The position numbers and the translations under genes are program-made. The notes beneath the pieces are model-generated. The model searched no databases. It had not been told where the DNA came from and saw nothing but the letters and a program-made list of their open reading frames with translations. A DNA stretch of 64,000 nt from Nemertoderma westbladi (taxonomy: Eukaryota > Animalia > Xenacoelomorpha). The DNA is taken from NCBI GenBank assembly GCA_032718475.1, contig JAUCBJ010000011.1:1-64000 (forward strand). Direction: 5' to 3'. Position 1 is the stretch's first letter, and every line of letters starts with the position of its first letter. Of this stretch, positions 5,308 to 27,855 are shown one piece after another.

Positions 5308-5852
5308 TGCAACGCAACACAAGCCCCGAAGCAAGCCACACACAAATGAAGGTTAGAGGTCAAACCACCTCGGAGGGGACACAGCTAGCAGAGGCTAGCA
5401 ACAGAGGGGAAACACTCCCAGAGAGTGGAAGGGTGAGAAGTAGGTTATTAGCCAATAAGGTCAAAGGAGAGCATCCATTAGGTAGCAGGCCAAGGTAGCG
5501 TAGGAGTGAAGTAATATTGGTATATCAATCTTATATTTATCTCCTGCTACCGGTTTGTGATTCAGTTTAGTTAGTTTCCCAGTTTCAGTGCAGACGGGTA
5601 ATGTTTTACCATCACCTTCAACAACATTGGCTGTATTTTAATCTATTACATGTACCAAGCAATATTGTCATCCGCTATCATATTAACATCATATTAACTG
5701 TGCTATCGCTATTATATTAGACCGCCAAGGAACAACGTTAACTCTGAACGCTTTTCTCCAACAGCCTCGGCCAAGCAATCAGTGACACCACCCCAGCCTG
5801 CGGTGACGCGTACGAAACAACCTACCCGGTCGGGATCTCTGATCCCGTCACA
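5308..5852 (+). repeat. Possible LTR of an older retroelement (no partner copy in window)
   Basis: Starts TGCAACG just after a G-run and ends CGTCACA (imperfect TG..CA inverted ends). Followed by a GC-rich leader and a gag-like ORF. Confidence 0.3.
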
Positions 5853-6239
5853 GTAAAACAATGGCCAACTGCCATCGAACTGTGACTGTTAAAAGTAAAC
5901 AGATGAGCCAAGGAGAACCCCGATTATCAGAGGGAGAGAGGACGCCGCCGTGGATCCCGGACGATACCAACCAAACGATCCGTGAGGCCGCAACGCGACG
6001 GTATTGACCTGCGACACCGGATTCGCCGACGAGGGACGATCCGGTACCCCAAGCGGAGGGCGGCTGTCAAGCACGAGGGAGGGACGAGTCGACGCACGAC
6101 GGCGGTCGGAGTACCGAAGTCGCCGGCCAGCCACAGGCCGAGGGCGATGGACGGCACACCGGAACGGCGACGGTGGGGCCGCCGGTACGACGCCAAACAA
6201 GGAGAGGAGGAGGAGATGTCGGCGAAGAGGATGTCGGGA

Positions 6240-7178
6240 TGAGTGATTGGCTACAACGGGCCTACAACGCCACAAAGAAACTACTAAAGGAGGCCAGAGA
6301 GGGAGGAAAGGTAGACCAGCCTAAGTTACACCAAAGGCTAGGTGAGTCTAACAAACATTTTCGATACTTAGTCCGTTTTGGACAGGGAGAACTGGCGAGT
6401 GAGAGAGCGAGGGGGGTCGCCACCGAACTATTCGAACTGTGGCGATCCGGGGTTATGGAGCCTGAAGTAGTGTACGTAGGGCCATATTTAGTGGATGCTA
6501 GGGGAATTAAGTTAGTGGGTTGGGCGGACCCGCACGAGGGCGAACCCGAGGTTAACCCCGAGGATTCGGTCTCGTCGGTTAGCGAGAACCCCAGAAAGCG
6601 GGGAAAGTTAGTAGGACAGAGAGGCAAAGGGAGTCCATCGCGACCGATAAGTCCGCTACATCCTCCACGAAAGCAAGAAGGGTGTTAGAGATAGATCTGG
6701 CATGTCAATTGGACATGGTGGCGCTAGACCAGAAAGAATTAGAGAGGCAGTTGGATAAGGGAACTGCGTTGTTAGAGAAAGAGGGAGAGTTAGCGAGGGA
6801 ATGTAGAGAGGGGGCCGAGAGGGTGGCGAGAAACTCTAGGGAGCGGGAGGAGGGAAAGATAAACGAACGTAAAGAGCGAGAAGCAAAAGAGGCAGCGAGG
6901 GCAGAGAGAGAAATGAACGAGTGTAGGGAGCGGGAGGCGAGATAAATAGAATTAGCGAATCAAAGTTTACGAGAGGATAGAGAGAGAGAGAGAGCGGGAA
7001 ATAGGGGCTAAGGGGGCTTATGCAATATCAGGCTAAGCAAAAGCGCCGATTAGAACTGGCGCAGTTGGGACTATCAGAGAGTGAGGCTGGCTCGGGTAGC
7101 ATTTACGAGGATGAGCCAGAAGTAATGGAAACGTTCGTTAATACCCCACTTACAGGTACTGGATGACAGAGCCAGGAC
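6240..7178 (+). pseudogene. 5' part of a decayed retroelement-like gene (coiled coil), cut by the BEL insertion
   Basis: MSDWLQ...EVNPEDSVSSVS, then an E/R-rich coiled coil across frameshifts and stops; ends at the AGGAC TSD. Confidence 0.6.
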
Positions 7179-8356
7179 TGTTCGCGCTTTTAGACCTTTA
7201 GCAGTTTAACCTGCCAAATTTGGATGTCTTCTAGATAATAAATCGTCTTTAGCCTATGACAAGTATTTGATACACTGCATTAGCCGAAGCCAGTCTATGC
7301 GCGACCATTCACCCGCTGGATATACCCGGGAGACTGGATTCGGAAGCCTAACCGTATTGCGGTGTAGGCCTACTGTATTATTCGACTGATCTTAATATAT
7401 AATCTCTGACAAATATTATTCACTTTCGGGAAATATTAACAGTTCCTTTAGGACGTGGCGCTCTAAATATGTAAACAGAGTTATGACTTAAACTAGACAC
7501 AACGGGAAGGCTATAGATTCACGTATATGGCGCATTCTTTAGGAGATGCTTTGTTATCAGTCACAATCATACACAATACTGCACAATGCTGCACACCGAT
7601 CTGCCGACCTTCACTAATTTTAGTCACATATAAAGAGAACAACAACCAATACATGTAGTGCCTATGAAATAGCATTAGATTCACTTCAAAACCACTTTAA
7701 TGTAAGTCGCAATCGTTATATGTAACCGGTCTCTCTTACCTTCAGTATATCAAGAAGATTGAGGGTTTGTAATTATTTATCGGTATTCCAAATATAATAA
7801 TATTCCATCAACAGATATAATGAATAACCGACAGTAAATAGCAGTAAAAATGTGGTGTTTGTAGTTGAAAATATGATTAGGTGAGTGAGTTGTGAGATGT
7901 GATAACAGATATACGTTCTATAATTAAGCCTACTAATGTTGGGCTAAAGACTGAAAACACAGAGATTCCAAAAGCCGGTCTTCTAGGCTCAGGACGAAAT
8001 GTAAACATTGACCCATAATGCATTGCGCGATTTCCCGGAGGTTTCTGTACAAAAAGCAGGAGAATCGCTCTGATTGGTTGACCAAACAAAGAAACACCAG
8101 AGAACAAGGAAAAAGCTACACGTGTACTGCTCAGCTGTTAGCTGTCATCATAGTAACTACACTGTTTCAAGAGGATCTAGCGCATTGCGTCATAGAATTG
8201 CTAATTATGTCCGCTAAAGTACACATACAGAAGAAATGGCTTTCTACATCCCCTAAAACACCAGTACAGTAAGGATACGGCTTTTTATGCCTATTAAACC
8301 AACTACAGAGTACTTTACGGGGAAAATAACAGGCTAATTCCGCAAAAGCTTTTACA
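7179..8356 (-). repeat. 3' LTR of the BEL element
   Basis: Direct repeat of 22681-23858 with about 16 substitutions counted by eye; preceded on the minus strand by the PPT-like GGGAGCGG (8364-8357). Confidence 0.96.
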
Positions 8357-8434
8357 CCGCTCCCAGAAAATGGGATTTAAGTCTATAAAATATAAAAAAT
8401 TACAGTTTCTAAAATATAAAAATACTCTAAACAG

Positions 8435-10210
8435 TTAGTCTTTCTTACGCGGACGGCGTTTACGCAGTTTTTTGAGGCTAGCAAGAGTCCTTTTCTCGTT
8501 GGGGCGAGCCACTTTACTAGGAGGGCTGTAACTCCTGGGTGAAGGGTGCAATACAATTGCATCAGAAGGTTTAGGATTACGATCGGTGTATCCGCCGGTC
8601 GAGGTACCTGGTTGATCGATATTAACTTCAGTGGAGCGAGGTCTAACGGCCTTTAGGGCGCGTCTTAGGACAGCAGCTCCTACGGGTCCTTGATGGGTCG
8701 TCTGGACAATAGCGGTAGGTGGACCGTGAGTGGTGAGAAACTTCCTCGGTTTAATGGTTCTTTCCAGCTCGCATTCTCGGGCTCGATATTCGTAGGGCCG
8801 TCGAGATACTTCTTGTAACTCAGGGTGCGAGTTGATAAATAAATGAATGGATGAAATGAATGAATGGATGAAATTGATCAAATGGTATGAAGTAATATCG
8901 TTAGGATTGACGTTCCTGAGATATTTTCGAACAAATTTGGTGGAAATACACTCACCAACACGCTTCATTAGTTCGTAACTCGGTGTGCGTGTTTTTTGTT
9001 CAACAGACGCGAATAAATAAGGATGGAACGCGTAAACTCCCTCGTAAGAGCGTCCAGGGTAATAGCGATGGCGGGACTTACAATGTAAATCTGCGTTCGC
9101 TTCCCAAGCTCGGATGTAGCGCAGGGTAATCATCTCATCTACGCTTTCTAAATCGCGGTTAAAGGGGCAATTATAACTGGCATGTCCTTTAAGTTGACAG
9201 TGGTGGCATTGAGTCATAAATTGGGGGCAGACTGCAAAAATGTGCGAGTTATTAAGTCTGCAATACGCACAATAGATCTCCATCATCGGTTGTTCGTGGA
9301 AATAGGAGCAGGGTACGTCTGAGTCCATAGGTGTGAAATGGTCTCTCGATGCGCATAATCGACAACGTTTTCGAGAAACATATTTGGCGTGTCGATAATC
9401 GTATGCGGTGAGACATTGTGGACCTTGATACCACTCCAAGACGTAATCGTTATCGCTGCTCCGGGGCGCTGTAGGCTGAATCGCCTCAGATTCTAAGCAT
9501 ATTGGTTCGTCTTCCAATTGCATAGCTGAGGTAGGTGCGGCTGTCTCCGCAAGCGGACCCACTGTCTGAACTTCCACGACAGAATAACCCGTGGGTATTC
9601 GGGGTCTTTGTATAACAGATGAATGTAAGTTCTGTATACAAACGTCCTGGAAAAGGGCAAATCCCGCGCTGTTTAGTTTCTCCGCAGCTGAGTCTCTTAG
9701 GCTGAGTTTGGTCAGAGTGCGGTCCTTGAACTGACTATCAACGTTACGGAACGGAGTCAGAAAGCGCCTGAAACATTCGAAGCGGATGAATTTATTGTGT
9801 TCATCTAACTTTGCGAGTTTGGTTCCAAGTATTAAGGGATGGGCGCGTATGGTACGACTGCACACATCGGCTAGCCAACCGGCAAGTGCTGCGTTTTCAA
9901 AGATCGTGTATATAGCTAAGGAGGGACGAAGTGGAACACTCATAAAGCTATACACGGCGCCAGGTGCGGTCAATGGTCCATCAAAGTATAAACGAGAATA
10001 ATGATCTCCATATACTTGTTGGTAATTGATAGGATTTCCAACCTTGAAATTCCATCCGTATTCTTGAAAGGCAAGATGTCCGATGGAGGTTCGTTGTACT
10101 TTAGTAATGCCGCTGGGTGTATTGGCATACATAGTGCGGAAGAAACCTCGGCCTTCTGCCCAGGGAGCAATCAGCTGAGTATCAACGAAAGGGTATGGAA
10201 TGTTCTCCAT
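8435..10210 (-). CDS. BEL accessory ORF: 591-aa protein with three CCHC zinc motifs and a basic C-terminus
   Basis: Long uninterrupted ORF between pol and the 3' LTR. Motifs Cx2Cx4Hx9C, Cx2Cx5Hx4C, Cx2Cx4Hx4C; ends KKLRKRRPRKKD; no evident signal peptide or TM segment. Confidence 0.8.
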   Translation of the reverse strand: MENIPYPFVDTQLIAPWAEGRGFFRTMYANTPSGITKVQRTSIGHLAFQEYGWNFKVGNPINYQQVYGDHYSRLYFDGPLTAPGAVYSFMSVPLRPSLAIYTIFENAALAGWLADVCSRTIRAHPLILGTKLAKLDEHNKFIRFECFRRFLTPFRNVDSQFKDRTLTKLSLRDSAAEKLNSAGFALFQDVCIQNLHSSVIQRPRIPTGYSVVEVQTVGPLAETAAPTSAMQLEDEPICLESEAIQPTAPRSSDNDYVLEWYQGPQCLTAYDYRHAKYVSRKRCRLCASRDHFTPMDSDVPCSYFHEQPMMEIYCAYCRLNNSHIFAVCPQFMTQCHHCQLKGHASYNCPFNRDLESVDEMITLRYIRAWEANADLHCKSRHRYYPGRSYEGVYAFHPYLFASVEQKTRTPSYELMKRVGECISTKFVRKYLRNVNPNDITSYHLINFIHSFISSIHLFINSHPELQEVSRRPYEYRARECELERTIKPRKFLTTHGPPTAIVQTTHQGPVGAAVLRRALKAVRPRSTEVNIDQPGTSTGGYTDRNPKPSDAIVLHPSPRSYSPPSKVARPNEKRTLASLKKLRKRRPRKKD

Positions 10211-11027
10211 ATTCCCGTCGTATGCCTAATATGTCTTCCATTGATGGTAGAGGTAGAGAGCAGGGGAAGACCTATGTCGTATTCAGAAATATTCAGAAAT
10301 ACGATCTCAGTTCTCAGTAGGAGGATTCAAACGTTCGAAGACTATCTCCAAATGAATTTATCCCCAGTGATTAGGGGGTGAACAACCAGATTTATGACAC
10401 ATAATGGTACCAGTTGTTCACAGACTATCCACGTGTCCTTTTAGTCCTTGAATCACGGTTGTGGACTTAAGGAAATTATTGGTGGTTGATTATCTAATCA
10501 ACGACAAGAGGGTGGAAGTTGATATCATAAATATCAACAGAATGTGACATGGATAGGAGGTGCGGACACCAATATGAGCATCCAGATTAATAGTAAGGGA
10601 TGGGAGGTTTATTAAGAGGCAGTATGATCAATACCACGATACGGCAATGATCGGTCGATCGTCTCCTAAAGCTCCGAGCGCGTTGGGAAGAGAAGGTGGG
10701 ATGAAGTATGTTGTATTTTCAATAGCGATGTATAGAGGGATAAGGGTATTGAAGAGGAGGGAGGATATATGGTAGTATCCATAAGATACCACAATGGACA
10801 TGTTTTCCGTCACGTCATCATTCATTCTTGCCTTTTAATTGTGACACTGATCACAATAATTACAGGAAAACGTTGAAGGAAGAGAAAATTACAGCCTCCC
10901 GAAGGAGACTGCCCGCGAGCACCCGTGCCCCGGGGAAAACTATTCACATTATGGACCCTGGACATTAACCCATGTCTCTTCTCCAGTGGTTCTCCTCTAT
11001 TTGTCTTTTCAAGCCTTCTTCCACGTT

Positions 11028-11405
11028 CTATCTTTCGAGTTGATTTCGAATAGAATTCTCGTATTCTATTCTCGGTTTATCGTGCCGACTCCGCTGGGTA
11101 TGATATTTAAATAAAACCATTTCCCTTTCGGTGTCTACATCGTCCGTATCGTGTAAATCTATAGGATGGCCAGTAGTTAAGAAGTCCATATACGTACCAT
11201 TACGATGCGTATAGCGAGCGGTGAACTTTCTATAATCCAATTCACGCGTAAGTTGCTCCGGGGACGTTGGCGGTTCGATATAACGACCATCATCCTCCGT
11301 AGTAGTGGGACCAGCGTCGCCGCGTATCAAGCTATCGACAAACGCTTGTAAAGGTAGAGTATATCGCTCCCTGATACCAAGATCATCTTCTATCAACTCA
11401 GTCAT
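11028..11405 (-). CDS. Small BEL accessory ORF (125 aa), unknown function
   Basis: ATG-initiated with coding-like composition; N-terminus resembles the frameshift-corrected start of the 591-aa ORF. Confidence 0.5.
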   Translation of the reverse strand: MTELIEDDLGIRERYTLPLQAFVDSLIRGDAGPTTTEDDGRYIEPPTSPEQLTRELDYRKFTARYTHRNGTYMDFLTTGHPIDLHDTDDVDTEREMVLFKYHTQRSRHDKPRIEYENSIRNQLER

Positions 11406-12227
11406 ATCTGCTATATGAGTTTATCAATATTATAATGAGTTTATATATTAGGCTAGCGGGCGTCGCTGCCTACCCCTCTTTTGCCCCCGGACAGTGCCAG
11501 ATCCTCAGCGCCGATGTACCGTCGTCGCTGTGCTTTCGCCAACGATGTAGCTACACAACGACAACGATAACCGGCACAAGTCACTCCACTGTCCGTCCCA
11601 AAGGCTTAGATGTACTTCAGGTTCTTTCTGGAGAGTTAGGTCTACTTTCACAATTGCGACTCGCTACTGTAAACACACTTTAGCAGTAACATTCACCTAT
11701 AAATGCACAAATTCAACACAACTGTCACAAACTGTACACATTCGGGCCATTTGTCCGTTAGTCAGTGCCTTCCAGAATGTCACTTTATTTATTATGTATC
11801 CTTGGATACTAGCAGTGCGCTATTTATTCCCTATGCTATTCAATGGGGCAAGCTTTCTATTGTTCTTTTAACTCACTTCTAATTCTAGCGTGGTTGTTGC
11901 CATGGTGACATTATGGAAAGCTAGTGGTAGAATTAGGGTAATTCTCATGCATACAGATCTGGGATGCTATTTAATAGTAATTCTTTAATGGTCAATATCC
12001 TCTCTATACATGATTTTATGAATTTTATCGGCTATTGACTATATATTGGAGATTCTCGCACACTAATACACTTAATAGAGTGAATCTCTGCTCCCATGAT
12101 CTATTAATTAAAGGAATTTTGGGAATATTATAAATTGTATAAAAATGACAATTTATTAAATTCATTAAAAATATGAATTTAAATTTATTCCCGTAAATTT
12201 TATTATTCAATATTAAATAGACACAAT

Positions 12228-12520
12228 TTTATTCCAAAACATGTCTGGGGACTGGGATCCTTGATTCTAGGAAATTGATCTTTTTAAGAATATCGGTAAG
12301 TGCTACGATATCTTAATAGACTAGAATTTTAAAGGATCTAAAATTTGACAGATTTTGTAAATATTAATGATTAATATTTAGGATGGGCACCAGTTTATTC
12401 CAGAACTTGTCTGGGGACGTTAACCACTGATTCTAGAATTTTGTCTTTCAAGTATATCGGTGGGTGCCGCGATATCTTAATCGACTAGAATTGCAGATGG
12501 TCAAAGGGTTTAACAGATTT
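12228..12520 (-). repeat. Two diverged copies (~166-bp period) of a stem-loop element between pol and the accessory ORFs
   Basis: Copies start at ~12228 and ~12394; both keep the ATTCTAG/CTAGAAT, TTAAG-ATATCG/CGATAT-CTTRA and CCAGA/TYTGG pairings. Confidence 0.75.
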
Positions 12521-13039
12521 ATTTTGCGTTGTACGCTACTGTTAAAGGGACATCACGCTACTATATGTATTATTTAATATATGGTATGAGAGCAATATCG
12601 CACGAAGCAATGTCAGTGAGAAGAGGCAAGTCGTTTCCAAGGTCTACCCAGAGCTTGGTTTAGCCGAGACACGAGGATCTGAATTTTGCATTCCTAATAC
12701 TCTACTTACCAATAATACTTGAATATAGTAGGAGCTTTATTGTACTTTAATAAGTACGGATATTTCATCTTACTGTAGTTACGTATTTGTAATGTAATAC
12801 GGACAGTAAGGAAAGAGAAAAAGAATTATTTCTCGCCGTCGCACTAAATATATAATATATAAGTAATTAAATAATAAACGCAAATATATTGCACTAATCT
12901 ACTAAATAATCGCTAAAATAACATTCTACTAAATAAAATTAAAGAAAACGATTATAATAAAATTACGTAATAATACATACATAAATATAAAATGATAAGA
13001 ATATAAAATAATATGGTCACACACCCACTCCATACGCTA

Positions 13040-16000
13040 CTAAGCTGGGGAGTCCCTAGATGTTTGTTGGATTAGGGAGGTGGTCGTGGGAAGAGTATCT
13101 TGTCTTCCATAGTTTCCGGAGAGTTCTCTGTCTCTTTCCAGTAAACATAAACGACCAACTGGGCGGTTGAGCTGCTGTGTCTCGAAGACAATTCCCGGTT
13201 TCTTGAAGTTACGTCGCATGACGACGAGTTCTACCGATCGCACCAAACCGTCATCCGAGATGTGAGTCTCGATGATACGACCTGTCTGCCACTGCTTACG
13301 TGGAAGATCTGAATTCACAATAAGGACCATGTCTCCAGCACTGACGTTTTCTTGCTGCGCAAACCACTTAGTTCGAAGTTGTAGCGTGGGCAGATAATGT
13401 TTTTCGAAATGGTCAGCGAAACGACGGGATAACAATTGCATGAGTTGCCAAGTTTGCCGGCAGTATTCGTCTCCGTCTGTGATTTCCGATTGTGGGAGCA
13501 TGGCTACAGGTTTCTTCAGTAGGAAGTGCGCGGGTGTTAGCGCTTCCAGGGAATCGGGACTCGATGAGACTGGCATAAGCGGTCTCTCGTTGAGATAGGC
13601 GGTGATTTCCTCCATTAACGTCTGCAAAAGTTCGTCGGTGAGATACGCGCGGCACGGCACTATAAAGTGAAATGCGGTCTTCACACTTCTAATTAATCTC
13701 TCCCAACTTCCTCCCCACCAAGGGGCGTCGGCGGCGTTGAAGGTCCAGCTAGACGCTGTTACCCCCTTAGCTGATCGTCCACCTGTCTTTGGTTCCAATC
13801 TTTGACGTAAGCTTTGATTTCATTGTTGGCACCAATGAAGTTTGTTCCCTTATCAGATCTCATCGTGTTACTAGTGCCAAAGCGAGCGATCTGTCGTCGT
13901 AAGCTTAATAGGAAGCTGTTGGTAGACAAATCGTTCACCATATCGAGATGGATAGCTCTACAAGTCATACAAACAAAGATGACACACCATCTCTTGACTA
14001 TGGTCCTAGCACGATATACTTCAATAGGGCCAAATAAATCTACACCGGTATTAGTAAAGGGTGGTTCATAGAAGCTTACTTGTTCCCTAGGTAATTCTGC
14101 CTCTCGCTGTGTTAAAGGCCTACTGAATGCTTTCCTACAGGGTATACAGTTCCTAAGAACTTGGTTCAGAGCACTACGGGGTTTATAGAAATAATAGCGA
14201 GTTCGAATTTCGCTAAGAACTCGTTCTCTACCAGCATGATAAAGTTTGCTGTGAACATCTACAATCATCTTGACTTGTATTTCAAGATTTCTAATTAGTA
14301 TGGGAAACTTAGTGTCAAAGGATAATGGAGCATTCGTTAATCTTCCTCCAACACGTATCAACCCATCTATCATTGTGCTAGAGAAACGATCCCTTAAGCG
14401 CATCTGTGGATTTCTCAACAACAGGAAATACTTATCGGAATCATCATAGCATTGCAGGAGTCTCAGCATCTGCTTGTTGGTTTCTTCATGCTCCTGATAA
14501 CTGATCTTCTCCTTCAGAAACCTGTCGGATATCTTATATTTGGGAAGATCTTTAACAACATGGACCTGCACTGATGTCAGCGGAGCGGTATCACTATTGG
14601 TCTTCATCCCGGAGTAGTGATGGTGAAAACATCTTTTTAAATATGTAACGGCTTTACAGAGCCGATTCCAGGAACTGTAGTGATGTATCGCTCTCTGCAG
14701 GAGAGGTGAGAGTCTTTGCGAGACGTCTGGTATTACAGATTTCCAATCCTTCTCACGGATTTCTACAACAGACTTATTTATGGCTGTGGGTTTCTGATCC
14801 AAAGCGTCGTCTCCGGAAGTATGTAGTACAGACAGATCTACCGTAGGTTTAAATAACTTCGATTTACTCGCCCGAGTTTTAGGTTTGACTTTCTCCGCTC
14901 CCTTGGCCTGTCTGATCTCTGCCGTAGTAAGATGAGGAGGCCATTCTTCTTCTTCTTTGTAGAGGAAGTCGGGTCCACCTAGCCAGTCTGGAGTATCTAC
15001 CAGTTCCTGTGGAGTAGCTCCCCTGGAGGCGATGTCTGCTGGATTGATCGTTCCGGGGCAATGTCTCCATTGATCAATCTTCGTGCGACTAAGTATAATG
15101 GCTACTCTGTTGGTAACGAAGACGGTGAACTGACAGACTTCATTGGTTATATACTCCAACACGAGTAAAGCATCGGTCCAATAGACAGTTTTCTCCAGTG
15201 GATAGTCGATCTGTTCTGTTACATTCCGGCCGATGGCTGTAGCGTATAGAGCCGCTTTTAACTCCGCTCGAGGAACTTTCAACTTGTTGTTTATCAATGC
15301 CTTAGAGGTAACCAAGGCGACTTTGATTCCATCCGGAGTTTCCACTCTTAGGTAGGCTACTATACCTATTCCCATATCGCTGGCATCTCCAAACACATGG
15401 AGTTGATAGGAATACGTAGGGAGAACATGACCAAAATATGAACGGGAAATTATAAAGTTCTCGATGGCTGGTAGAGAATCTTCCCATTTCATCCACTTCT
15501 TTAATAATTCTCCCTTAAGTGGATCGTCCCATGAGTGGTTTTCAAGCCACATTTGTTGTACTAAACTCCGAGCAATCAATATAACTGGGCTAATAAATCC
15601 CAATGGATCGAAATAAGTACTCAGGATACTTAAACAAATCCGTTTAGTCCGAACTGGATTATCCCGCTGTTTTAGCTGGAAAAACAGGATATCTCTCTCT
15701 GTGTCCCATTTCAAACCAAGGGTCTTGGTTTCTGGAAGATCATCTTTGATTAGATCTAGGTCTTTCGCTCCTCGATCTTCTACCGGGATCGACTCCAGAA
15801 ACTCACGGGAGTTGCTGGTGAATTTAGTTAATCGAAATCCACCTCTTTTTAAGCACTCTACCATTCCTTTAGCGACATCAATGGCTTCTTCGACTGATGG
15901 AAGGGACTTTAGGTTGTCGTCCATGTATATATCCCGTTTGATGTTGTCAATCACCTCTTTAGAGAAGGCTTCTCGGTTGTCATCCGCAGTGGTGCGCACC

Positions 16001-19000
16001 ACTGAACAGGCGTTTGAAGGGCTTGAGATTATCCCAAAAGCCTGGATGGTCATCCAGTACTCCACCGGTTTCTGGTTGAGGTCTCCTTCAGGCCACCACA
16101 GAAATCGTAGGCTATCTCGATCCCTATCCAGCGCCTTGACTTGTAAGAACATGCCTTCTATATCTGAGGCGAAAGCGATTGAATATTGTCTTAATCTTAA
16201 GAGTATTCCCAACAAGGATTGGAGTAAGTTGGGTCCGGGTAACAATTCGGAATTAAGGGATTGGCCCATATAGAGGGCAGAGCCGTCAAACACCACTCGT
16301 ACCTCATGGGGTTTACCGGGTTTGGGAACGTAATGGTGAGTTAAATAATACGTTCTCTCAGTTATAGGTGTTTCTTCCGGTACTCGCTCCGCATATCCCT
16401 TGCTAATAAATTTCCTCAACTGCGTTTGATACATTTCTTTAGCTGAAGAATTTGCCGTAAGGCGTCGATGTAGTTGAGCAATTCTTTTCTCCGCCAAGGG
16501 TCTGCTGTTTATGAACTTTGGTTCTCGCTTTCTGAAAGGTAGACCGATTTCATATCTACCTTGATCTTTAAGAAAACGTGTAGTTGTCTCTTGGATCTGC
16601 TTGGCTCTTTCTTCTTCTACCGATAGGGCCTTATTGTAGGAATTGGGCTCTACAGCCTCTTGAGTAAAGAATCGTACGGCGTGTTCATCCCGAGCCTTGG
16701 CATTACAACGTTCAATGACGTCATTCAGTTCGTCGTTATAGTCGTCTCGTTCTGATGGATGAAGGAGCTGACATAAGTTCACTTGGTTTTGCCAAGTCTC
16801 GTTTACCTTAAGGAGATCAATGGTATTCTCCTCGTCGAAGAGTAGGTGGATATCGTCGTTATCTGAGGAGTATGGTGTTCCCTCAGTGGGATCGTCTAAC
16901 TCACTGCTCTCAACTTCCCATTCTCTTACTTGATATACCTGATCTTTCGGTAATCTTTCCATGAGAGTTCTACGGGAAGGGCCAGTAAAGTACCAACCCA
17001 CTCTAGTTCTTCCCGCATAAGCTTGTAGTGGTTGCGGTTGAGCAGGCCGTTTCTCCAATGTCTCGAGCGCTTCATGCGCGTTTTGACCGATGAGTATTTG
17101 CACTCCAGGGTAATCGGTGTTGAATCTAGGTATTTAGAGCTGCTGGGTGAAATCGTCCTCATCCCAGTTATAAGGTTCCACTTGGCTGGTAGCGAAGTTC
17201 TTTATCGCCACCATTTTTACTGACCTTATACTATGTTCTCCTAGTTCATCCTGGGGGGTGGACAACGCACCTACATAATAATCCGCTATTACTGTAGATT
17301 TCCAAACCTGCATAATTCCTGACATGTTTAGCTTAGTTCGGAACTTGGGTTGTCCAGCAAAGATGTCTTCGGCTAGTTCTTTGTCGATGAATGTTCCTGT
17401 GCTATCGGAGTCAAGGAGGGCGTTCACTATATAACTCCTTTTAGGTCCGTGGACCCTTAACTGTACTACAGGAAATTCTCGGATTCCTACATTGGAAGTT
17501 GGCGCCTTCCAAGATGGTTGTCAATCAGAAGTAGTTAGGGTGAGGTCGCTGTCTGTGTCTTTTTCATACGTAAGTGCTCGATACACTGCGGTATTTATCA
17601 TGTAACAGGATTCATCTTCGTCGGAGAATTCATCCGTATAGAATCCTTCCATCTCAGAACTTTGGTCAGTGTCGTTCACATCACTGAATTGGACATGTAG
17701 TTCGGAATCACTTACCTGACTCGGACTGTTTCGTTCGAATTCAGTGTGCAACAAGATATGATGTTTCGCACCGCACTTTGCACACCTTGTGTCGGAGTAA
17801 CAGGTTCGCCGTTGGTGTCCTTGTCTGAGGCAATTATAACACAACCGCTTATCCCACATGACTTCCCGTCTCTCCGTTAATGATTTCTTCAGGAATTCAT
17901 CACACATATTCAAACGGTGGGTCCCGTCACATAGCACACATTTCGGTTTGATGTTACTTACCTTATTTTGAATAACATTGTGCACACTCGTTCTTTCTTC
18001 GGGCTTTCTCACCTGAATTCTCTTAGGAGACGTAGGAGGAGTTTTTCTTACCTGTTCTCTCCTGTCATTGGCTCGAGACTTGAATTTACTTACCTGTTCT
18101 TTAGGCGTTTTATTGACATAATAAGATCTTTCAGTGTCTTTCCCGCTATCCTCTCCTTGAGAAGTCTGGCTTTCGCCGTCGTCGGTATAACACACTGGTG
18201 TTACTTTTCTCCTAGAAACGGGTTTCTCACTTACCTTGTTTTCCGGTGTCTTCTCTCTGGATTTCCTTAGGAGCTGTAATTTCACTTCTCCATCTAAGAA
18301 TGACATGGTAGGGTCTCGTCGTTGTTGTTCCATCATATATAACACTTTCTTATCCCAGCGTGTACCTACTCCACCCTTCGGTAAAGTAGAAGCCACGGCT
18401 CCAATAACCATAGAACTCTGATATTCATGAGACTTACCTAACCAATCTAATTGTCTACAGATCTCTTGAATCTCATCGGAAAACTCTATTATCCCAGTTG
18501 CCAACGTTGTAGCGGGCGGACGAGGGACAACGGGCGACAAATCATTAATATTTCGCTCGGAGTCCAAGACATAAACTGTCTCATGGGCTGTTCTGCTGGG
18601 CACAGGTAGCTTAGTGCTATGCAAAGAGAATTTAGAGGTAGGTTCTGGGAGTACAGGTGTCTCTATCACCGAAGGGGTGGCTTCGGGAACAGGCCTAATT
18701 ATTTCAGGCTCATCTACTATAGTAGGGAGTCTGTCTATTTTAATAATTTGGTCTATGGGTTCTGTACTACCTAAGTCTGTGCTAGTTAGTTGTTTTCGAA
18801 CAGCTGGGGGCAAATCAGGCAATTTCTGACGGTGGGACATTCTTCTACGTCTGCTGAGACGAGATCTATTTCCTCCACCTTCAGTATCGGTGGTATCGCC
18901 TTCCTCAGATGATGTATATCCCTGTCTTTTGGGAGTAGATCGACTCATCATCTGCATTTGACTAGCTGTTAACTGTTTATTTATGCAGTCTTGATTCTCT

Positions 19001-20397
19001 TGAATATTTTCCAACTCTAGTTGTGTGGTCTCTTCAGCTGCTCTTCATTCTGCTTCTGCCACTGCTCGCTTTCTTTCTGCTTCTACTGCTGCCGCTGCCG
19101 CTTTTCTTTCTGATTCTGCCACTGCCGCTGCTGCTTTTCTTTCTGATTCTGCCGCTGCCGCTGCCGCTTTTCTATCCACTTCTGCCGCTTTTCTTTCTGC
19201 TTCTGCCTCTGCTGCTGCTATCTTTCTGTCTTCTATACGTTTTTTCTTTACTTGTTCTTCTTGGACTCTAGTGATGCGGAGACGTTCATCAAATTTAGCT
19301 TGGTTCGCAGCTCTCATATCCGCATCGATTGCGTCCAACACAAGCTTGGCTCCTTCACTGTTAGGGCTAAGTCCATCTAGCCTTCTCCTCAACTCTTCAT
19401 CTCCTACAAAACGTTGATAGTCCGACAGATAGATGTCAATAGCATCCCTCTTATGCGGTTTCTCTACCGTCGCTTCACTTTCCACTTGGGAAAATGTAGC
19501 GTCTGTGGATTCTCCATGGATTGAGCGCTCAGCTAACTGAGATTTCCAAGGGGCAGTTCTTTGAACTTGGAGACTCACCCGCTGTAACCAAGTCTTTACG
19601 GCAACTTGCAACGACGTGTCTTGTCTTCTTTTCGAAGCCTCCTCAAAGGCCGATAGGATTAGTCTGATTCTTAGAATTCTTTCTCGAACTTGATAAAGCA
19701 GCTCTCCCTGCTCTTGAGGTCCTTGTGGTTGTCTAAACAATTGTTCTTCTAATCGCTCCATGGAGCCGAAGAATCCCTGTACGTATCCGGCTGCGGACCA
19801 CTTCCACACAGCTGGATCGATGGTTTCCATGGTTACTCCCATCCTGTGTATGTCTTCCCAGGCAGCTTCCGATAAGTCAAACGGGAGTCCGGGTCCGGGG
19901 AAGTTCCATTGCGACTCGACAATAGACTTCAGTTCTTCCCTTGTGTATACCGCATAACTATCCTTAGTCGATCTCTTACTTCTCGCCCAATCAATCTGGT
20001 GTTCCTCCACCGCAATCAACAACCTAGTGAGTACGGCTGCAGGAAGGATGAGAAGGGGATCCGAATAAACCGCATCTGTCATCTTTGCTCCGTGCTCGGG
20101 TGTCAGCTCTACAGTATCCGCACTACTGTAGCTGTCGGGCCGCTGAGAAATAAGTTCTCGGCTCGAGTGTTGCTGCTGTTCCGCTGCTTCTTGGTCCCGC
20201 TTGACCTGAGCTCGAGTGCCTATGATAGACCTACGGTGTTGGACTAGCCTAGGGTCTGATACTACTACTGGAGGGATGATCTTTCTTACAGTAGGAGGTG
20301 AGTTGAACTTCGGTCTCACACGTTCCACACTCCTGTCTGGGTCACAGATGGTCGTATCTAGGAGACTGTCTGACAGGTTTTGCTTTGTGTCAGACAT
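13040..20397 (-). pseudogene. BEL gag-pol polyprotein, disabled
   Basis: One frame broken by stops at 19047, 17523 and 17136 plus a frameshift near 13780. Gag zinc knuckles CVLCDGTH/CYNCLRQGH/CAKCGAKHH; protease ALLDSDS (DSG altered); RT RVVFDGS and YMDD; RNase H HVFGDAS; integrase GVDLFGP, RSDKGTNF, WWGGSWERL. Confidence 0.95.
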
Positions 20398-20519
20398 GTT
20401 TGTTTGTACAGTTGAATGCCTACTGCTATGTTACAGTTAAAGCAAATCTAGTAATTCAGTATCAACTGATAGCCTAGTAATTAATTACCGATATCGTCAC
20501 TGAATGTAACTTGATATAT

Positions 20520-20900
20520 ATATAATATATTAGAATACCGGTATGCTTATAGTATATATAAGTATTATTACAGACTAGGTTTGTCACAGAATACCTGTAT
20601 GTAATTTCTGCACAAATATATATAAATATATAATAGGCCTATCGTGAATACCGGTATACAGCTTACACTTATAGTATATATAAGTATAATTATAAACTAG
20701 AATTAATTACAGAATACCGGTATAATTTCAGCCTAGATTTATAAATATATAATAGGTCTATCGTGAATACCGGTATACAGCTTACACTTATAATATATAT
20801 AAGTATAATTATGAACTAGAATTAATTACAGAATACCGGTATGATTTCAGCCTAAATTTATAGAAATAAATATAATAAGCCTATGTTAAATACCGGTATG
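20520..20900. repeat. ~119-bp AT-rich tandem repeats in the BEL leader
   Basis: About three copies containing atcgtgaataccggtatacagcttacactta...ttacagaataccggtat. Confidence 0.75.
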
Positions 20901-21859
20901 TCAATTATTTTGGAATAATTGAATTTCTGAATTTTAGGGGTTACTTGGTTACTTTAACTTACTTTATTACCGTTATTTAAGCAGTAGTCCAACTGATATT
21001 AAGACCTAATTGTTGTATGGCAGGCCTACTATTTATAAATCGTTTGAGTTGATTTATAATATATATACCCGTTTAATGGGTTTTGTCAATATTTGAAATA
21101 AATGTTATTATTTCTGGGGGAGTCACTACACAGAAGCTGTACGCTCTCAGTGGAGTGCTACTTGTTGGACACTAAAACAAATAATTCTAATTTACCTAAG
21201 TTACTTAATACTACAAATTACGTACAATTCTGGGTGAGATTACAATCTCTAAATAAACACAAAAATTACACGTACGAATTTTTAGGGTAATTTTACAAGA
21301 AGTCTACAAACCAGCCTAACAAAGGGTTAGAATATCTGGTTATTACAACGGACAGGGTACTACGGTATTTGAAAATAATAAGTAGTAGTAAATATACTGC
21401 GTTGTCCAGATAGGAAAAATACCACCGTCTGACGACTTATAGCCGTATCGCTATAAATACTACGTTATGTATCACGGAGTGTTCCTACCTAGAAGTTAAT
21501 TACCGCGGTCTACCAGAACCAACGTGCCTATTAACCACTTTACAACACAAATATACCGTCTACACACTAATTGCCTTCGGAAAGCACTGTACACTAAACC
21601 CTAAATTAGGTACAAGTACTTATACAACAAATAATCAGTAGTTAAAAATACTTGAACAGCTAAAAGAACCACGGTATCTGCTGGAGTGACCGGGGCACAA
21701 AATCACCAGTCTTTACCTACGCCAAGCAGCCCTGATGTAGTACCGGGGTTAATTTAACTATAACGGTATATATAACAAGCACAATTACTGTAGGAATAAA
21801 CTTGGGGATATGAATGTTGCGAATAATCGCATAAACTCTGAATAATAAATATTACAGTA

Positions 21860-22401
21860 CAGACTATTCAAACAAAATGCAGACCAAATACCGACAGACT
21901 ACTATCAAGCCTAAACAAACTACGGTATATGCAGACTCCGAAATGGTTAGTTAGTATGCGTTCTAACCGAGTAGTACGACTTATTCTTTCGAGGGGGTTT
22001 ACCTCACAGCACTGGAAGCCCCTACGTTCCCAACTGGCACTTTATCGGACATACACTCTACACACACCGAAATCTTTTCAGACCTAACAACAGCCAGTCA
22101 AAATCCAGCCTACAAATTATCTAAATAAGAAATATTACGCTACCCGTACAGACTACACAAACAAAGTACAGACCAAACGCTGGCAGACTACTATCAAGCC
22201 TAAATATACTACAGTATATGCAGACTCCGAAATGGTTAGTTAGTATGCGTTCTAACCGAGTAGTACGACTTATTCTTTCGAGGGGGTTTACCTCACAGCA
22301 CTGGAAGCCCCTACGTTCCCAACTAGTACTTTTTCGGACATACGCTCTACACACACTACAGTCCCTTCAGACTTAACAACAGTCCAGCCTACAAATTATC
22401 T
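21860..22401. repeat. ~290-bp tandem duplication in the BEL leader
   Basis: cagactactatcaagcctaaa...ggaagcccctacgttcccaact occurs at ~21895 and ~22184. Confidence 0.85.
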
Positions 22402-22680
22402 GTACAATCTGAGCAGGCTTACACGCCTTCTGCTCAATATTGGCCTACAAATAAATAAAACTGACAGAAATAAGTAAAATCTCAATAAAAAACCAGGGCG
22501 GGCCCTCCCTGATTCAATATTAAGGCCTACCGGTATATAATTATCAAATCGAATAATACTGCTGTACCTGTACTACTGTAGGTACCGGTCCGGGTGGTTA
22601 GGTAGTCAGGCCTACTAGGTACCGGTTAACCGGTACTTCAGCTTTATTTCCTACTGCAATACAGAAGCTATATCTGTTAT

Positions 22681-23858
22681 TGTTCGCGCTTTTAGACCTT
22701 TAGCAGTTTAACCTGCCAAATTTGGATGTCTTCTAGATAATAAATCGTCTTTAGCCTATGACAAGTATTTGATACACTACATTAGCCGAAGCCAGTCTAT
22801 GCGCGACCATTCACCCGCTGGATATACCCGGGAGACTGGATTCGGAAGCCCAACTGTATTGCGGTGTAGGCCTACTGTATTATTCGACTGATCTTAATAT
22901 ATAATCTCTGACAAATATTATTCACTTTCGGGAAATATTAACAGTTCCTTTAGGACGTGGTGCTCTAAATATGTAAACAGAGTTATGACTTAAACTAGAC
23001 ACAACGGGAAGGCTATAGATTCACGTATATGGCGCATTCTTTAGGAGATGCTTTGTTATCAGTCACAATCATACACAATACTGCACAATGCTGCACACCG
23101 ATCTGCCGACCTTCACTAATTTTAGTCACATATAAAGAGAACAACAACCAATACATGTAGTGCCTATGAAATAGCATTAGATTCACTTCAAAACCACTTT
23201 AATGTAAGTCGCAATCGTTATATGTAACTGGTCTCTCTTACCTTCAGTATATCAAGAAGATTGAGGGTTTGTAATTATTTATCGGTATTCCAAATATAAT
23301 AATATTCCATCAACAGATATAATGAATAACCGACAGTAAATAGCAGTAAAAATGCGGTGTTTGTAGTTGACAATATGATTAGGTGAGTGAGTTGTGAGAT
23401 GCGATAACAGATATACGTTCTATAATTAAGCCTACTAATGTTGGGCTAAAGACTGAAAACACAGAGATTCCAAAAGCCGGTCTTCTAGGCTCAGGACAAA
23501 ATGTAAACATTGACCCATAATGCATTGCGCGATTTCCCGGAGGTTTCTGTACAAAAAGCAGGAGAATCGCTCTGATTGGTTGACCGAACAAAGAAACACC
23601 AGAGAACAAGGAAAAAGCTACACGTGTACAGCTCAGCTGTTAGCTGTCGTTATAGTAACTACACTGTTTCAAGAGGATCTAGCGCATTGCGTCATAGAAT
23701 TGCTAATTATGTCCGCTAAAGTACACATACAGAAGAAATGGCTTTCTACGTCCCCTAAAACACCAGTACAGTAAGGATACGGCTTTTTATGCCTGTTAAA
23801 CCAACTACAGAGTACTTTACGGGGAAAATAACCGGCTAATTCCGCAAAAGCTTTTACA
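22681..23858 (-). repeat. 5' LTR of the BEL element
   Basis: Direct repeat of 7179-8356; bounded by the TSD AGGAC at 23859-23863. Confidence 0.96.
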
Positions 23859-23863
23859 AGGAC

Positions 23864-25627
23864 TGGTGTAACCGTATGGGCAGGGGGGGGGGGGGGTAAT
23901 AATAATACGTTAGAAGGCATTAATATTAATAGTACCGTAGTAGACAACCCTAATCAAACTTTCATTGCAGGAAGGAATTAATCTTTTACCCGGTAATATT
24001 AATTTAAATACAAATAATACAAATAATAATTTAAATTCATGTATACAAAATAATTCGAATAATAATATTAATTTAAATATACAAAATAATAATAATTCTA
24101 ATTTAAATAATTTAAATAATAATATTGATAACGGGGCTATTAATACGAATGCAGGAGACACAGGTGGTCCGGCCAGCGAGAGCCTGCAAGGCCACGCAGT
24201 TACGCAGGGAGTAGCGGGGGTGAGTCACCCCGACGGGAGCCTGCAAAGCCACGTAGTTAGGCAGGGAGTAGCGGGGGTGAGTCAACCCGATGGGAGCCTG
24301 CCAGGCCACGCAGTTGCACAGGGAGAGGCGGGGGTGAGTAGACCCAGCCTCAGTAGAGACAGTGCGTCGACTAGAGAGGGGCGTAGAAGTGAAGTAGGAG
24401 AGATTGAGGACAAAGGCGAGGATGTTTACTTTGTTCCGGATCGGCAACCCTTGACTGGAGAGGATGAAATTGTTCTAGATATTGGGAAGGAAGGGAGTGC
24501 GAAGCCGATTGGAGACCTCATATATGAGAGGGCTTGGTTTCCGCAAGCGCGTAGATGCAAGTTGTGCGGCAGCACAAGACATAGTCAAAAGTCTTGTGAT
24601 GCTGTGGTAGAGGCGGCGCACAAAGTTTGCCGTTGGTGCAACGAGACTGACCATTCATTTCATACGTGTACCGTCTTCATTTCCCAGTGTGGATATTGTG
24701 GGGTAAAGGGACACCGTAGCGCAAAGTGCCAGCTGCGTGATGATTCCTTCCAAAACCATAGCGCTAACCTCCTTCGGGAGATGTTGGATAAGTAGGAGAA
24801 TGTGGCCGATTACCACATTCAGGCCCAAATGCGGTGGTTGCCGTTTAAGGCAGGATACGGATTCTGGGCAGTGGATCCATCACACGTTGCTTATGAGCCG
24901 TATCTGCAATCCCTACCGCAATATCAGGAGTTGATGTTAACCGCTCAGGACCTTCCGCAGAATACAGGAGTTGTGGTTAATAGATTGTATTTCCGGCAGC
25001 TTAATATGGACAATAAATATACTTGGAATTTCATCGCTATCTGCGACAGGATAACCAGGGGAGTATTTTCAGAGACGAGGAAGGTGGTGTGTGCGCGAGG
25101 CGACTGGAGGATGGCAGCCATCCAATACCGCAACGAATTCTTGCGGACTCACATTCAGTTGGGGTCATTGACCTCTGAGCGGGTGGAGGAGCAACGGATC
25201 GCCGCACCCACAGCGACAACAGCCGGAGCCCATAGCTCGCGGCAAGTGCCAGAAGGAGTAGTCCTTGTCAAGCGTCAAGCCAAGGACGAGCAGTTCCATT
25301 CTATTATTGATTCGCAGAGACTGCAACGAAAGGCGCAAGGAGCGTCCGAAAGGGCACGCATGCAGTTGCAGAAAGAGGAGTTGGCGGAGGCGCCCGCAGG
25401 GACACAGCATCTGTGACGAGGCCGAGGGAGGAGTACCAGCCGGGAGACAGCTGGGGCCCAGGGAACGTCGTCGCCGGTTCCAGGAAGTGACGCCTCAAGG
25501 ACGCCGTCAACAGAGTCTACAGGGGGTAGACTGGTGTATCTGGGGAGGGGACGAAAGAGAGGAGCGAGCCCGAGAGACCCAGGAGCTAGCCAATGAGACT
25601 ATAATATCACGGAGCGACAGACTCTAG
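23864..25627 (+). pseudogene. 3' part of the decayed host gene: Asn-rich tract, 20-aa repeats, three CCHC knuckles and a downstream domain
   Basis: ORFs 23965-24795 and 24802-25416 are in frame across a TAG that aligns to Trp of the 591-aa ORF. Three Cx2Cx4Hx4C motifs; 60-bp repeat x3 at ~24180-24345; Arg-rich tail in a shifted frame to 25627. Confidence 0.7.
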
Positions 25628-25879
25628 ACATATACATCATCGTCGCTCTGATGTATATCGTAGGTTTTGATAAAACATTCGACTGGACTCATACACACTA
25701 GTCGTATCCAAATTTTAGAATTTCATAAGTAATGTATATTCTATTATGATATAATATTAATAGTGAGTGGCGAAGGAGGTGACTGGGGTGACAAACCCGC
25801 GGGTTTGGCTTACCCCTTTCACCTGCCCTAGCCAGAGTGTTTTTTATATTATTTAGGTAGACCGTCAATTTGTAAATAA

Positions 25880-26036
25880 GTAAAGAAAGCAATATTTTTG
25901 TAATTTAATTTGTATGTAGTATCATTATGCAGTAAAGAAAGCAATATTTTTGTAATTTAATTTGTATGTAGTAATCATTATGCAGTAAAGGAAGCAATAT
26001 TTTGTAATTTAATTTGTATGTAAAAATCATTATGCA
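25880..26036. repeat. ~52-bp tandem repeat x3
   Basis: gtaaagaaagcaatatttttgtaatttaatttgtatgtagtatcattatgca repeated. Confidence 0.85.
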
Positions 26037-26054
26037 ATATCAGTGGCAATATTG

Positions 26055-27855
26055 AGAAAGTCACACGCAATTTTGGACACAAACACCCTATATGAGACAC
26101 AAACACCCTATATGGGACATAAACAACCTATTTGGGACAACAAATTTAATTTATAGCTATGATAGTGAATTCTATAATCTTTTGAGTATTCCATTGCATT
26201 TAGAAAATATTTGAAATCCTTATAAGCAATTCACACCCTATACGGGACACAAACACCCTATATGGGACAAAAACAACCTATTTGGGACAAATAGAAATTA
26301 AAGCTATGGTATTGAATTCTATATTCTTTTGAGTATTCTATGAGAGTTAGAAACTATTTAAAATCATTTTGAGAAAGTCATACGCTATTTGGGACACAAA
26401 CACTTATAACAGAATACTAACTAACTAACATTCTCGCTCTGGGGGTTTTAAAGGTCGATGATTTCATTTCTGATGTCAGTTTTCACTTTTAAATAAATCT
26501 TGTCTGTTGGTCTGTCGGTCTTTCTGTAAGTCAGTCCGTCAAAACTAAAAAAGAATATAAACTAACTAACATTCTTGCTATGGGGGTTTTAAGGGGTTCT
26601 GATTTCATTTCTGATGTCAGTTTTAATGTTTACATAAATCTCGTCTGTCTGTCTGTTGGTCTGTCGGTCATTCTGTCAGTCAGTCTGTCAAAACATAAAA
26701 AAGAATACAAACTAACTAACATTCTCGCTATGGGGGCTTTAAGGGGTGCTGATTTCATTTCTAATGTCAGATTTCACTTTTACATAAATCTAGTCTGTTG
26801 GTCTGACGGTCTGTCGGTCTTTCTGTCAGTCAGTCTGTCAAAACTTAAAAAAAAGAATACAAACTAACTAACATTCTCGCTATGGAGGTTGTAAGGGGTG
26901 CTGATTTCATTTCTGATGTCAGTTTTCAGGATTACATAAATCTAGTCTGTCTGTTTGTCGGACTGTCGGTCTTTCTGTCAGTCAGTCAGTCTGTCAAAAC
27001 TTAACAAATAATACAAACTAACTAACATTCTCGCTATGGGGGTTTTAATGGGTCCTGATTTCATTTCAGATGTCAGTTTTCACGTTTAAAAAAATCTAGT
27101 ATGTCTGGCTGTCTGTCTGTCGGTCTTTCTGTCAGTCAGTCTGTCAAAACTTAAGAAAGTGAACAACTAACTAACATTCTCGCCATGAGGGTTTTAAGGG
27201 TTGCTGATTTCATTTCTGATGTCAGTTTACAAGTTTACATAAATCTAGTCTGTCTGTCTGACGGTCTTTCTGTCAGTATGTACTACTGTACTGTGGTTGG
27301 CATTACGCCATATACCTAACACTAATAATACAGTCTACAATACAGCCTATCTACAGTACAGAATGGATTTTTGCCATGAAGAGCGCTAAATGTCTTTAAT
27401 ACTGTCCACCAGTATACCTAGACCAAGAGCCTTCCAATAAAACATGTATTCCAGCACGACGTCCACTGCACGTCTTAGTGCTGGCCATGGTGACGTGCAG
27501 TGGACGTCATAGGTTCTAAGGGATTAAATTAAAGCTATGATAGTGGATTCTATTTTCTTTTGAGTATTTCCATTATATTTATAAACTATGTAAAATCATT
27601 TTGAGAAAGTTACATGCTATTTGGTACAAAACCACCCTGTGTGGGACACAAACACCCTATATGGGACATAAACAACCTATTTGGGACAAATTGGAATTAA
27701 AGCTATGATTATGAAGTCATTATTCTTTTCAGTATTCCTTTACATTTATAAACTATTTGAAATAATTTTGATAAAGCTACAGGCTATTTTGGACAAAATG
27801 AACCTATATGGGACACAAACATCCTATATGGGACACTAACAACCTATTTGAGTCA
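26055..27855. repeat. ~155-bp repeat family (gggacacaaacaccctatat core) in two blocks, 26055-26405 and 27525-27855
   Basis: The same unit occurs on both sides of the 26411-27520 insert. Confidence 0.75.
26411..27277. repeat. ~150-bp tandem repeat x6
   Basis: aactaactaacattctcgctatgggggttttaaggggtgctgatttcatttctgatgtcag at ~26419, 26560, 26710, 26863, 27016 and 27165. Confidence 0.9.

What the first reader, a model, noticed from the sequence alone, without database searches (positions are those of the whole stretch)
6240..25627. BEL element inserted into a gene encoding a homologue of its own accessory zinc protein
Seen: removing the BEL element and one AGGAC joins 6240-7178 to 23864-25627 as one decayed + strand gene. 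Its core (RRCKLCGSTRH..CRWCNETDHSFHTCTVFISQCGYCGVKGHRSAKC..*ENVADYH..RWLPFKAGYGFWAVDP..PQYQELM) aligns with the BEL ORF (KRCRLCASRDH..CAYCRLNNSHIFAVCPQFMTQCHHCQLKGHASYNC..WEANADLH..RYYPGRSYEGVYAFHP..PSYELM), including beyond the cysteines. The TAG falls on a Trp. Inference: an unnamed protein family shared between distinct retroelements, placed 5' with a coiled coil in one and after pol in the other. The nesting may be chance or targeting.
Basis: partly seen in the sequence, partly recalled or inferred. Interest (0 to 1): 0.82.

Follow-up and report, generated by a model that had tools for sequence, protein, structure and literature searches.

The report
Unnamed zinc module in nested repeats
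A jumping gene (BEL/Pao retrotransposon) has landed inside a broken gene of another repeat family, and both encode distant versions of the same unnamed three-zinc-knuckle protein module, which likely binds RNA; the module is real, but the nesting is most likely chance.

Summary
Observation largely confirmed. A BEL/Pao element (7179-23858, 1178-nt LTRs 98.6% alike, 5-nt target duplication AGGAC) sits in a decayed, multi-copy + strand gene. The host core and the BEL post-pol ORF align at 26% over 179 columns (E 6e-13). The likeness survives Cys/His masking (9 of 1000 shuffles reach it). Two outside proteins carry the same module, with invariant E-x2-AD, R and G beyond the knuckles. A profile built from those two alone finds the BEL ORF (E 9e-10) but not BEL gag (E 1). 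No Pfam family covers the module.

The two window copies are no closer to each other (22%) than to the outsiders (22-29%), share no DNA likeness, and the target site lies 689 nt from the module. So targeting and recent capture are unsupported. The host is a repeat, but no RT or terminal repeats were found, so 'retroelement' is unproven. An uninterrupted copy was not seen. An exonuclease partner domain is only a lead.

Sharing of accessory ORFs between retroelements is published for rotifers. This scan noted exonuclease-knuckle ORF3s on other DNA, but not this module. Verdict: new variant of a known kind.

The parts
7179..8356 (-). BEL 3-prime LTR
   Evidence: 1178 nt, 98.6% identical to 22681-23858, TG...CA ends
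22681..23858 (-). BEL 5-prime LTR
7174..7178 (+). target-site duplication AGGAC, left copy
23859..23863 (+). target-site duplication AGGAC, right copy
17521..20430 (-). BEL gag region with coiled-coil repeats and its own three knuckles; in-frame stops at 19045-19047 and 17521-17523
   Evidence: other copies differ at 17523 in most of the depth
13040..17520 (-). BEL pol: protease, RT (YMDD), Pao RNase H region, integrase, DUF5641; stop at 17134-17136, frame switch near 13760-13819
   Evidence: PF05380 E 2.7e-36, PF18701 E 2.7e-21, PF17921 E 5.9e-7, all over cut-off
11028..11420 (-). small acidic ORF upstream of the accessory ORF; possibly the broken front of the same gene
   Evidence: one deep contig of run X4 joins 11047 to 9515 in matching frame
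8435..10225 (-). BEL accessory ORF after pol (591 aa from ATG 10210), ending in a very basic tail
8940..9375 (-). shared module in the BEL ORF: three Cys/His knuckles plus an approximately 70-aa tail with E-x2-AD, R, G, Y
5316..7178 (+). left arm of the host repeat; coding likely from ATG 5861 or 5903, charged predicted coiled coil about 6690-6940; breaks at 6005, about 6599, 6943, about 7005, 7164
   Evidence: multi-copy in 29 of 30 bins, first bin skipped by the tool
23864..25416 (+). right arm of the host gene: G run, Asn-rich stretch, three 57-nt repeats, module, helical tail; breaks near 23890, 23960-23980 and at 24793
   Evidence: multi-copy
24541..24945 (+). shared module in the host gene, with an in-frame stop at 24793-24795
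25768..25835 (+). strong hairpin downstream of the host gene, followed by 53-nt AT-rich repeats; possible 3-prime end of the host repeat
   Evidence: -38.2 kcal/mol, z -3.4, 0 of 200 shuffles (1 of 3 stretches folded, chosen by eye)

Best explanation
A BEL/Pao retrotransposon sits, with a 5-base target duplication, inside a decayed gene of another multi-copy repeat, and both encode distant copies of one old three-knuckle module that likely binds RNA; the landing site was most likely chance. Shown: the element, the duplication, the homology beyond the cysteines, outside members, and multi-copy status of both families. Inferred: the knuckles grip single-stranded RNA, as nucleocapsid, Lin28 and Air2 knuckles do, and the conserved tail packs against them as a helical subdomain. 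In the BEL element the module is part of an ORF3-type accessory protein with a basic, likely nuclear-targeting tail; it would bind the element's own RNA to protect or export it. In the host it follows a predicted coiled coil, a Gag/ORF1-like layout that would oligomerise on and package the repeat's RNA. The module belongs to an old pool of accessory domains that mobile elements pick up, likely by template switching during reverse transcription.
For: Homology: E 6e-13; survives masking (9 of 1000) and in the tail alone (1-4 of 1000). A phmmer search of 1.84 billion representatives gave 5 hits; by their sequences and Pfam rows 2 carry the whole module (P0003, twice, and P0004) and 3 are generic knuckle arrays. 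A profile from P0003 and P0004 only, run on 642 six-frame pieces of the window, ranks the host (E 1.7e-16; circular, since it found them) and the BEL ORF (E 9e-10; independent) first, with BEL gag at E 1. A cysteine-free tail profile ranks the same two loci first (E 0.0012 and 0.04; next best 3.1). Best PDB sequence matches are the knuckles of Lin28, HIV-2/HIV-1 nucleocapsid and Air2. Chance nesting: host-BEL identity is 22%, against 22-29% to outsiders; the tree joins them only at 67/83; there is no DNA match beyond a 34-nt low-complexity piece; the site is 689 nt from the module; both families are highly repeated in 4 runs of 3 studies. Precedent for shared ORF3s: PMC5408684 (sections 3.3, 3.4, Discussion). 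Nesting is common: PMC6911290 (abstract, plants).
Against: RNA binding and every functional step are untested. Both structure models are too poor to use (mean pLDDT 42 and 34). The tail-only match of the BEL ORF is modest (E 0.04). The family rests on 4 proteins. The weak tree does group the two window copies (67/83). Only one insertion site of this BEL family is known, so chance was not tested directly. The host's element class is unknown. PMC6911290 (abstract) reports that plant nesting is not fully random and avoids coding regions.
Confidence: 0.62

Rival explanations
1. The BEL accessory ORF is a DEDDy/RNase D-like exonuclease fused to the module, probably catalytically dead: a member of the ORF3 exonuclease pool known from rotifer elements, acting on RNA 3-prime ends or against small-RNA silencing. 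This is compatible with the best explanation and would refine it.
For: By eye (motifs recalled, not from a call), P0004 has D-x-E, later D and Y-x3-D motifs in exonuclease order, and P0003 and the BEL ORF have degenerate versions. The Atlas first hit for P0004 is a DNA_pol_A_exo1 plus CCHC cluster at 0.78, lead level only. The best stretches of my exonuclease profile fall on those motifs. Two unchecked scan notes report exonuclease-knuckle ORF3s elsewhere.
Against: No Pfam, NCBIfam or PDB sequence hit. hmmsearch with a profile of 30 rows (3 mis-picked) gave E 0.12-1.1. hhalign against the 27 clean rows was matched by 4, 25 and 7 of 40 shuffles. The N-termini of the three proteins do not align with each other significantly (best 5-11 of 500 shuffles).
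Confidence: 0.35
2. The nesting is not chance: the host repeat is a non-autonomous partner or a preferred target of this BEL family, and the shared module tethers BEL integration complexes or RNA to it.
For: A rare module occurs twice in one nested pair (only 2 other carriers among 1.84 billion representatives). The two copies group weakly in the tree.
Against: No DNA likeness, 22% protein identity, site 689 nt from the module. Predicted-protein libraries hold little animal repeat DNA (my inference), so rarity there says little about frequency in this genome. An unchecked note from the same genome describes ordinary nesting into a BEL pol.
Confidence: 0.1
3. The two arms are not one gene, or the host is a multi-copy cellular gene or cargo of a DNA element, not a retroelement gene.
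For: At least 8 breaks are needed for one reading. No majority indel at the switch near 7005. Left-arm bins are mostly deeper than right-arm bins. No RT or terminal repeats. The P0003 contig L001 shows a single intact gene with no element hallmark in 3685 nt.
Against: The exact 5-nt duplication around TG...CA implies the arms were adjacent DNA. Other copies differ at the stops 6005 and 6943 and at the switch near 6599, as expected for one ORF decayed in this copy.
Confidence: 0.2
4. The likeness is only that of any two triple-CCHC arrays, such as a Gag nucleocapsid.
For: The host core also scores above chance against BEL gag (60; 3 of 1000 shuffles). Masked significance is modest.
Against: Shuffles that hold Cys/His fixed never reach the score (0 of 1000). 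The tail motif is invariant in all 4 aligned sequences. The outside-only profile separates both ORFs from gag by 9 or more orders of magnitude.
Confidence: 0.04

Closest known systems
BEL/Pao LTR retrotransposons (Belpaoviridae)
   Same: TG...CA LTRs, 5-nt duplication, gag with three knuckles, PR-RT-RH-IN order, PF05380 and PF18701 over cut-off.
   Different: 16.7 kb long, with a 2.2-kb leader and a non-env, zinc-knuckle ORF after pol; no TGG primer-binding site right after the 5-prime LTR.
ORF3 pool of bdelloid rotifer Juno/Vesta LTR elements and Athena/Terminon elements (PMC5408684, sections 3.3-3.4 and Discussion; PMC6431247, passages)
   Same: A non-env ORF after pol whose relatives sit in a different kind of repeat.
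   Different: Those ORFs are DEDDy exonucleases, GDSL esterases, coiled-coil or membrane proteins in gypsy-like elements. The passages read describe no triple-knuckle module, and exonuclease identity here is not established.
CERV of C. elegans Cer1 (PMC10309623, abstract start and passages)
   Same: Works-like analogy: a nuclear accessory protein of an LTR element whose cysteines are needed for export of unspliced genomic RNA.
   Different: CERV shares its N-terminus with Gag, has a C4-type loop and not CCHC knuckles; homology was not tested.
CCHC knuckle arrays: retroviral nucleocapsid, Lin28, Air2
   Same: C-x2-C-x4-H-x4-C units; best PDB sequence hits.
   Different: The matches cover only the knuckles (up to profile position 71 of 160); none covers the conserved tail.

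Membership tests
BEL/Pao | LTRs with TG...CA and a short target duplication | tested here: met
BEL/Pao | Pao-type pol domains in PR-RT-RH-IN order | tested here: met
   PF05380, PF17921, PF18701 over cut-off; protease weak (E 0.046); YMDD seen
BEL/Pao | gag with three Cys/His knuckles (pattern recalled) | tested here: met
   three motifs in 17521-19044
BEL/Pao | RT phylogeny within BEL/Pao | not tested
   no reference RT set on hand
BEL Gag nucleocapsid (for the shared module) | module matches the gag knuckle array as well as it matches its partners | tested here: not met
   outside-only profile: gag E 1 against 9e-10 and 1.7e-16; BEL ORF vs gag reached by 217 of 1000 shuffles
DEDDy exonuclease ORF3 | significant match to a DEDDy/RNase D profile | tested here: inconclusive
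   not significant; Atlas lead 0.78 for P0004; the profile was bacterial and shallow
DEDDy exonuclease ORF3 | RNase H-like fold | tested here: inconclusive
   model pLDDT 34; no usable match
DEDDy exonuclease ORF3 | position between pol and the 3-prime LTR | tested here: met
Retroelement (host repeat) | multi-copy, diverged family | tested here: met
   6303 and 3435 contigs laid on the left arm, mostly 90-99% alike
Retroelement (host repeat) | own RT/pol gene | tested here: inconclusive
   none between 5316 and about 28400; this copy may be partial or non-autonomous
Retroelement (host repeat) | LTRs, terminal repeats or flanking duplication | tested here: inconclusive
   no shared repeat longer than 12 nt between 4200-6240 and 25400-28400; true ends not fixed
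Retroelement (host repeat) | capsid-like domain | tested here: inconclusive
   no Pfam or natural PDB hit for the N-terminal stretch

The most novel reading that the evidence does not exclude
The module is a shared RNA-handling or tethering factor that ties an autonomous BEL family to a Gag-only partner repeat: the BEL version, fused to a dead exonuclease, shields element RNA from small-RNA silencing, and the family preferentially integrates into or mobilises repeats that carry the same module.
Probability: 0.08. Interest if true: 0.8.

Novelty: new variant of a known kind. Interest (0 to 1): 0.4.

Why it matters
It defines an undescribed, probably RNA-binding domain with a clear motif, and extends the pool of accessory ORFs shared among mobile elements beyond rotifers and into BEL/Pao. 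Such non-env ORF3s are candidates for RNA export or anti-silencing factors. The nesting itself would matter only if insertion-site counts show targeting.

Tried and rejected
No whole genome is held, so copies and insertion sites could not be counted.

Atlas first hit for the module was DUF8363 at 0.87, lead level; the one paper holding that term has an unrelated title (listing only).

Structure: both AlphaFold models were unusable. Foldseek gave nothing at E 0.001; VIA-align gave only generic helical matches, best Z 7.2. The exonuclease tests were not significant; 3 of 30 profile rows were mis-picked and dropped. The 80 RNase D loci were too alike and were not used; one search found none.

Rfam at E 1 over 3700-28500: 0. 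ARAGORN: 0. No RNA holder listed. The empty site was not among the rows shown in either read call (21, 70); those tables are truncated, so this is not absence.

Literature searches that showed no description of this module: (open-access library only; judged from listings and the passages named). Repbase and Dfam could not be searched, and no supplements were read, so element annotations there may already hold this ORF. Scan look-ups by sequence and place were blank.
Full report
The window is animal-like DNA with intron-poor cellular genes and many repeats. No whole genome is held, so the work rests on the window, protein libraries and contigs of four public runs of one organism label from three studies.

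The element. Positions 7179-8356 and 22681-23858 are 1178-nt direct repeats with 16 differences and TG...CA ends. AGGAC flanks them exactly. On the minus strand lie gag and pol in one frame broken by three stops and one frame switch, with PF05380, PF17921 and PF18701 over cut-off. This is a BEL/Pao element, recently inserted but already damaged. After pol come about 1.6 kb of AT-rich DNA, a 130-codon ORF (11028-11420) and a 596-codon ORF (8435-10225) that stops 79 nt short of the 3-prime LTR and ends in a very basic tail.

The host. Both arms are repeats: all 30 bins were covered in 4 of 4 runs, and 6303 and 3435 contigs lay on the left arm, mostly 90-99% alike. Reading them as one gene needs frame switches near 6599, 7005, 23890 and 23960-23980 and passes stops at 6005, 6943, 7164 and 24793. 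Other copies differ from this one at 6005 (81% and 79% of depth in X1 and X3), at 6943 (95%, 96%) and in length at 6599 (47%, 52%). This fits one ORF that decayed in this copy and likely starts at ATG 5861 or 5903. Against it, no indel at 40% share was listed near 7005, and 7164 was not among the 40 of 78 rows shown. The empty site itself was not among the truncated rows of either call. The duplication is the evidence that the arms were adjacent. No RT, LTR or terminal repeat was found for the host. A strong hairpin follows the gene (z -3.4).

The homology. BLASTP gives 26% over 179 columns, E 6e-13. The score of 143 was reached by 0 of 1000 shuffles with Cys/His fixed. With Cys/His masked, 9 of 1000 shuffles reached the score, and for the tail alone 1-4 of 1000. 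A phmmer search of 1.84 billion representatives with the host core gave 5 hits. P0003 (two copies of the module) and P0004 carry the whole unit; the other three are plain knuckle arrays. The four-way alignment has invariant E-x2-AD, R, G and Y beyond the knuckles. The cleanest test used a profile built from P0003 and P0004 alone on 642 six-frame pieces of the window. It found the BEL ORF at E 9e-10 and the host at 1.7e-16 (circular), with gag at E 1. A cysteine-free tail profile again ranked these two loci first, at E 0.04 and 0.0012. No Pfam, NCBIfam or PHROG family covers the unit, and PDB matches cover only the knuckles of Lin28, nucleocapsid and Air2.

Chance or targeting. The two window copies are 22% identical in a five-way alignment, against 22-29% to the outside copies. 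The tree joins them only at 67/83 on very long branches, and the elements share no DNA beyond a 34-nt low-complexity piece. The target site is 689 nt before the module. So neither homology-guided insertion nor recent capture from this host is supported. Both families are highly repeated; BEL bins are deeper than host bins in X1-X3, although summed contig depth is not a copy number. Nesting is common in repeat-rich genomes (PMC6911290, abstract, which also reports non-random preferences in plants). With one site known, chance is the simplest reading but is untested.

Partner domains. By eye, and from recalled motifs, P0004 has exonuclease-like motifs before the module, and P0003 and the BEL ORF have degenerate versions. 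The Atlas gave a lead of 0.78. My profile tests were not significant and the model was unusable. I leave it at about one in three. One deep contig in run X4 joins 11047 to 9515; by length alone it keeps the small ORF and the module in one frame (one chance in three by default). If real, a natural variant keeps the module and drops the N-terminal half. The P0003 contig L001 shows one intact gene and no element hallmark.

Mechanism. CCHC knuckles of this spacing bind single-stranded nucleic acid in nucleocapsid, Lin28 and Air2 (established knowledge). I infer an RNA-binding module, used by the BEL element as an ORF3-type accessory factor on its own RNA, probably nuclear. CERV of Cer1 is a functional analogue (PMC10309623, abstract start and passages). 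In the host the module follows a predicted coiled coil (48% E/K/R over 84 residues), a Gag/ORF1-like layout. None of this is tested.

Comparison and verdict. PMC5408684 (sections 3.1-3.5 start, Discussion, passages) already describes non-env ORF3s shared between LTR elements and Terminons in rotifers and proposes template switching. PMC6431247 and PMC2774666 were seen as passages only. My searches showed no description of this module; repeat libraries and supplements were not seen. Unchecked scan notes report exonuclease-knuckle ORF3s in other genomes and ordinary nesting in this one. The finding is a real, undescribed domain in a known kind of arrangement, with a probably incidental nesting: new variant of a known kind, interest 0.4.

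Noticed in passing
window 9515-11047 (run X4): One very deep contig joins 11047 to 9515 with 10 letters between; by lengths the small ORF and the zinc module share a frame. Possibly a natural subfamily lacking the N-terminal half of the accessory gene.
   Followed up: partly
window 4330-5264 (+): Decayed ORF that looks by eye like a LINE ORF1 (Cys/His cluster, coiled coil); it ends just before the T/G run at 5276-5304 where the host repeat seems to begin. No Pfam hit better than E 0.1.
   Followed up: partly
window 59860-63861 (+): LINE ORF2 (endonuclease plus RT) whose frame opens with about 28 in-frame copies of a 36-nt repeat, behind an ORF1-like gene at 58861-59859.
   Followed up: no
window 47970-54800: About 6.8 kb of a 30-nt satellite bounded by 42-nt inverted arms (47971-48012 and 54704-54745), like a foldback element.
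   Followed up: no
window 29768-31436, 32715-33480, 39306-41174, 42815-43863: Four pairs of long inverted repeats (98-303 nt), likely MITE-type elements.
   Followed up: no
window 324-3753 (-), 34344-39011 (+), 45581-46561 (-): A CLC chloride channel in two long ORFs, and SHPRH and Yip1-domain genes as single uninterrupted ORFs: unusually intron-poor for an animal.
   Followed up: no
window 20431-22680: BEL leader of 2.2 kb with internal tandem repeats (119 and about 285 nt); no TGG primer-binding site directly after the 5-prime LTR.
   Followed up: no
window 28467-29570 (+): 5-prime truncated RT fragment with DUF6451 (weak), probably an RTE-like LINE.
   Followed up: no
L001 79-2025: P0003 carries two tandem copies of the module (43% alike) behind a possible dead exonuclease; no element hallmark in the 3685-nt contig.
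   Followed up: partly
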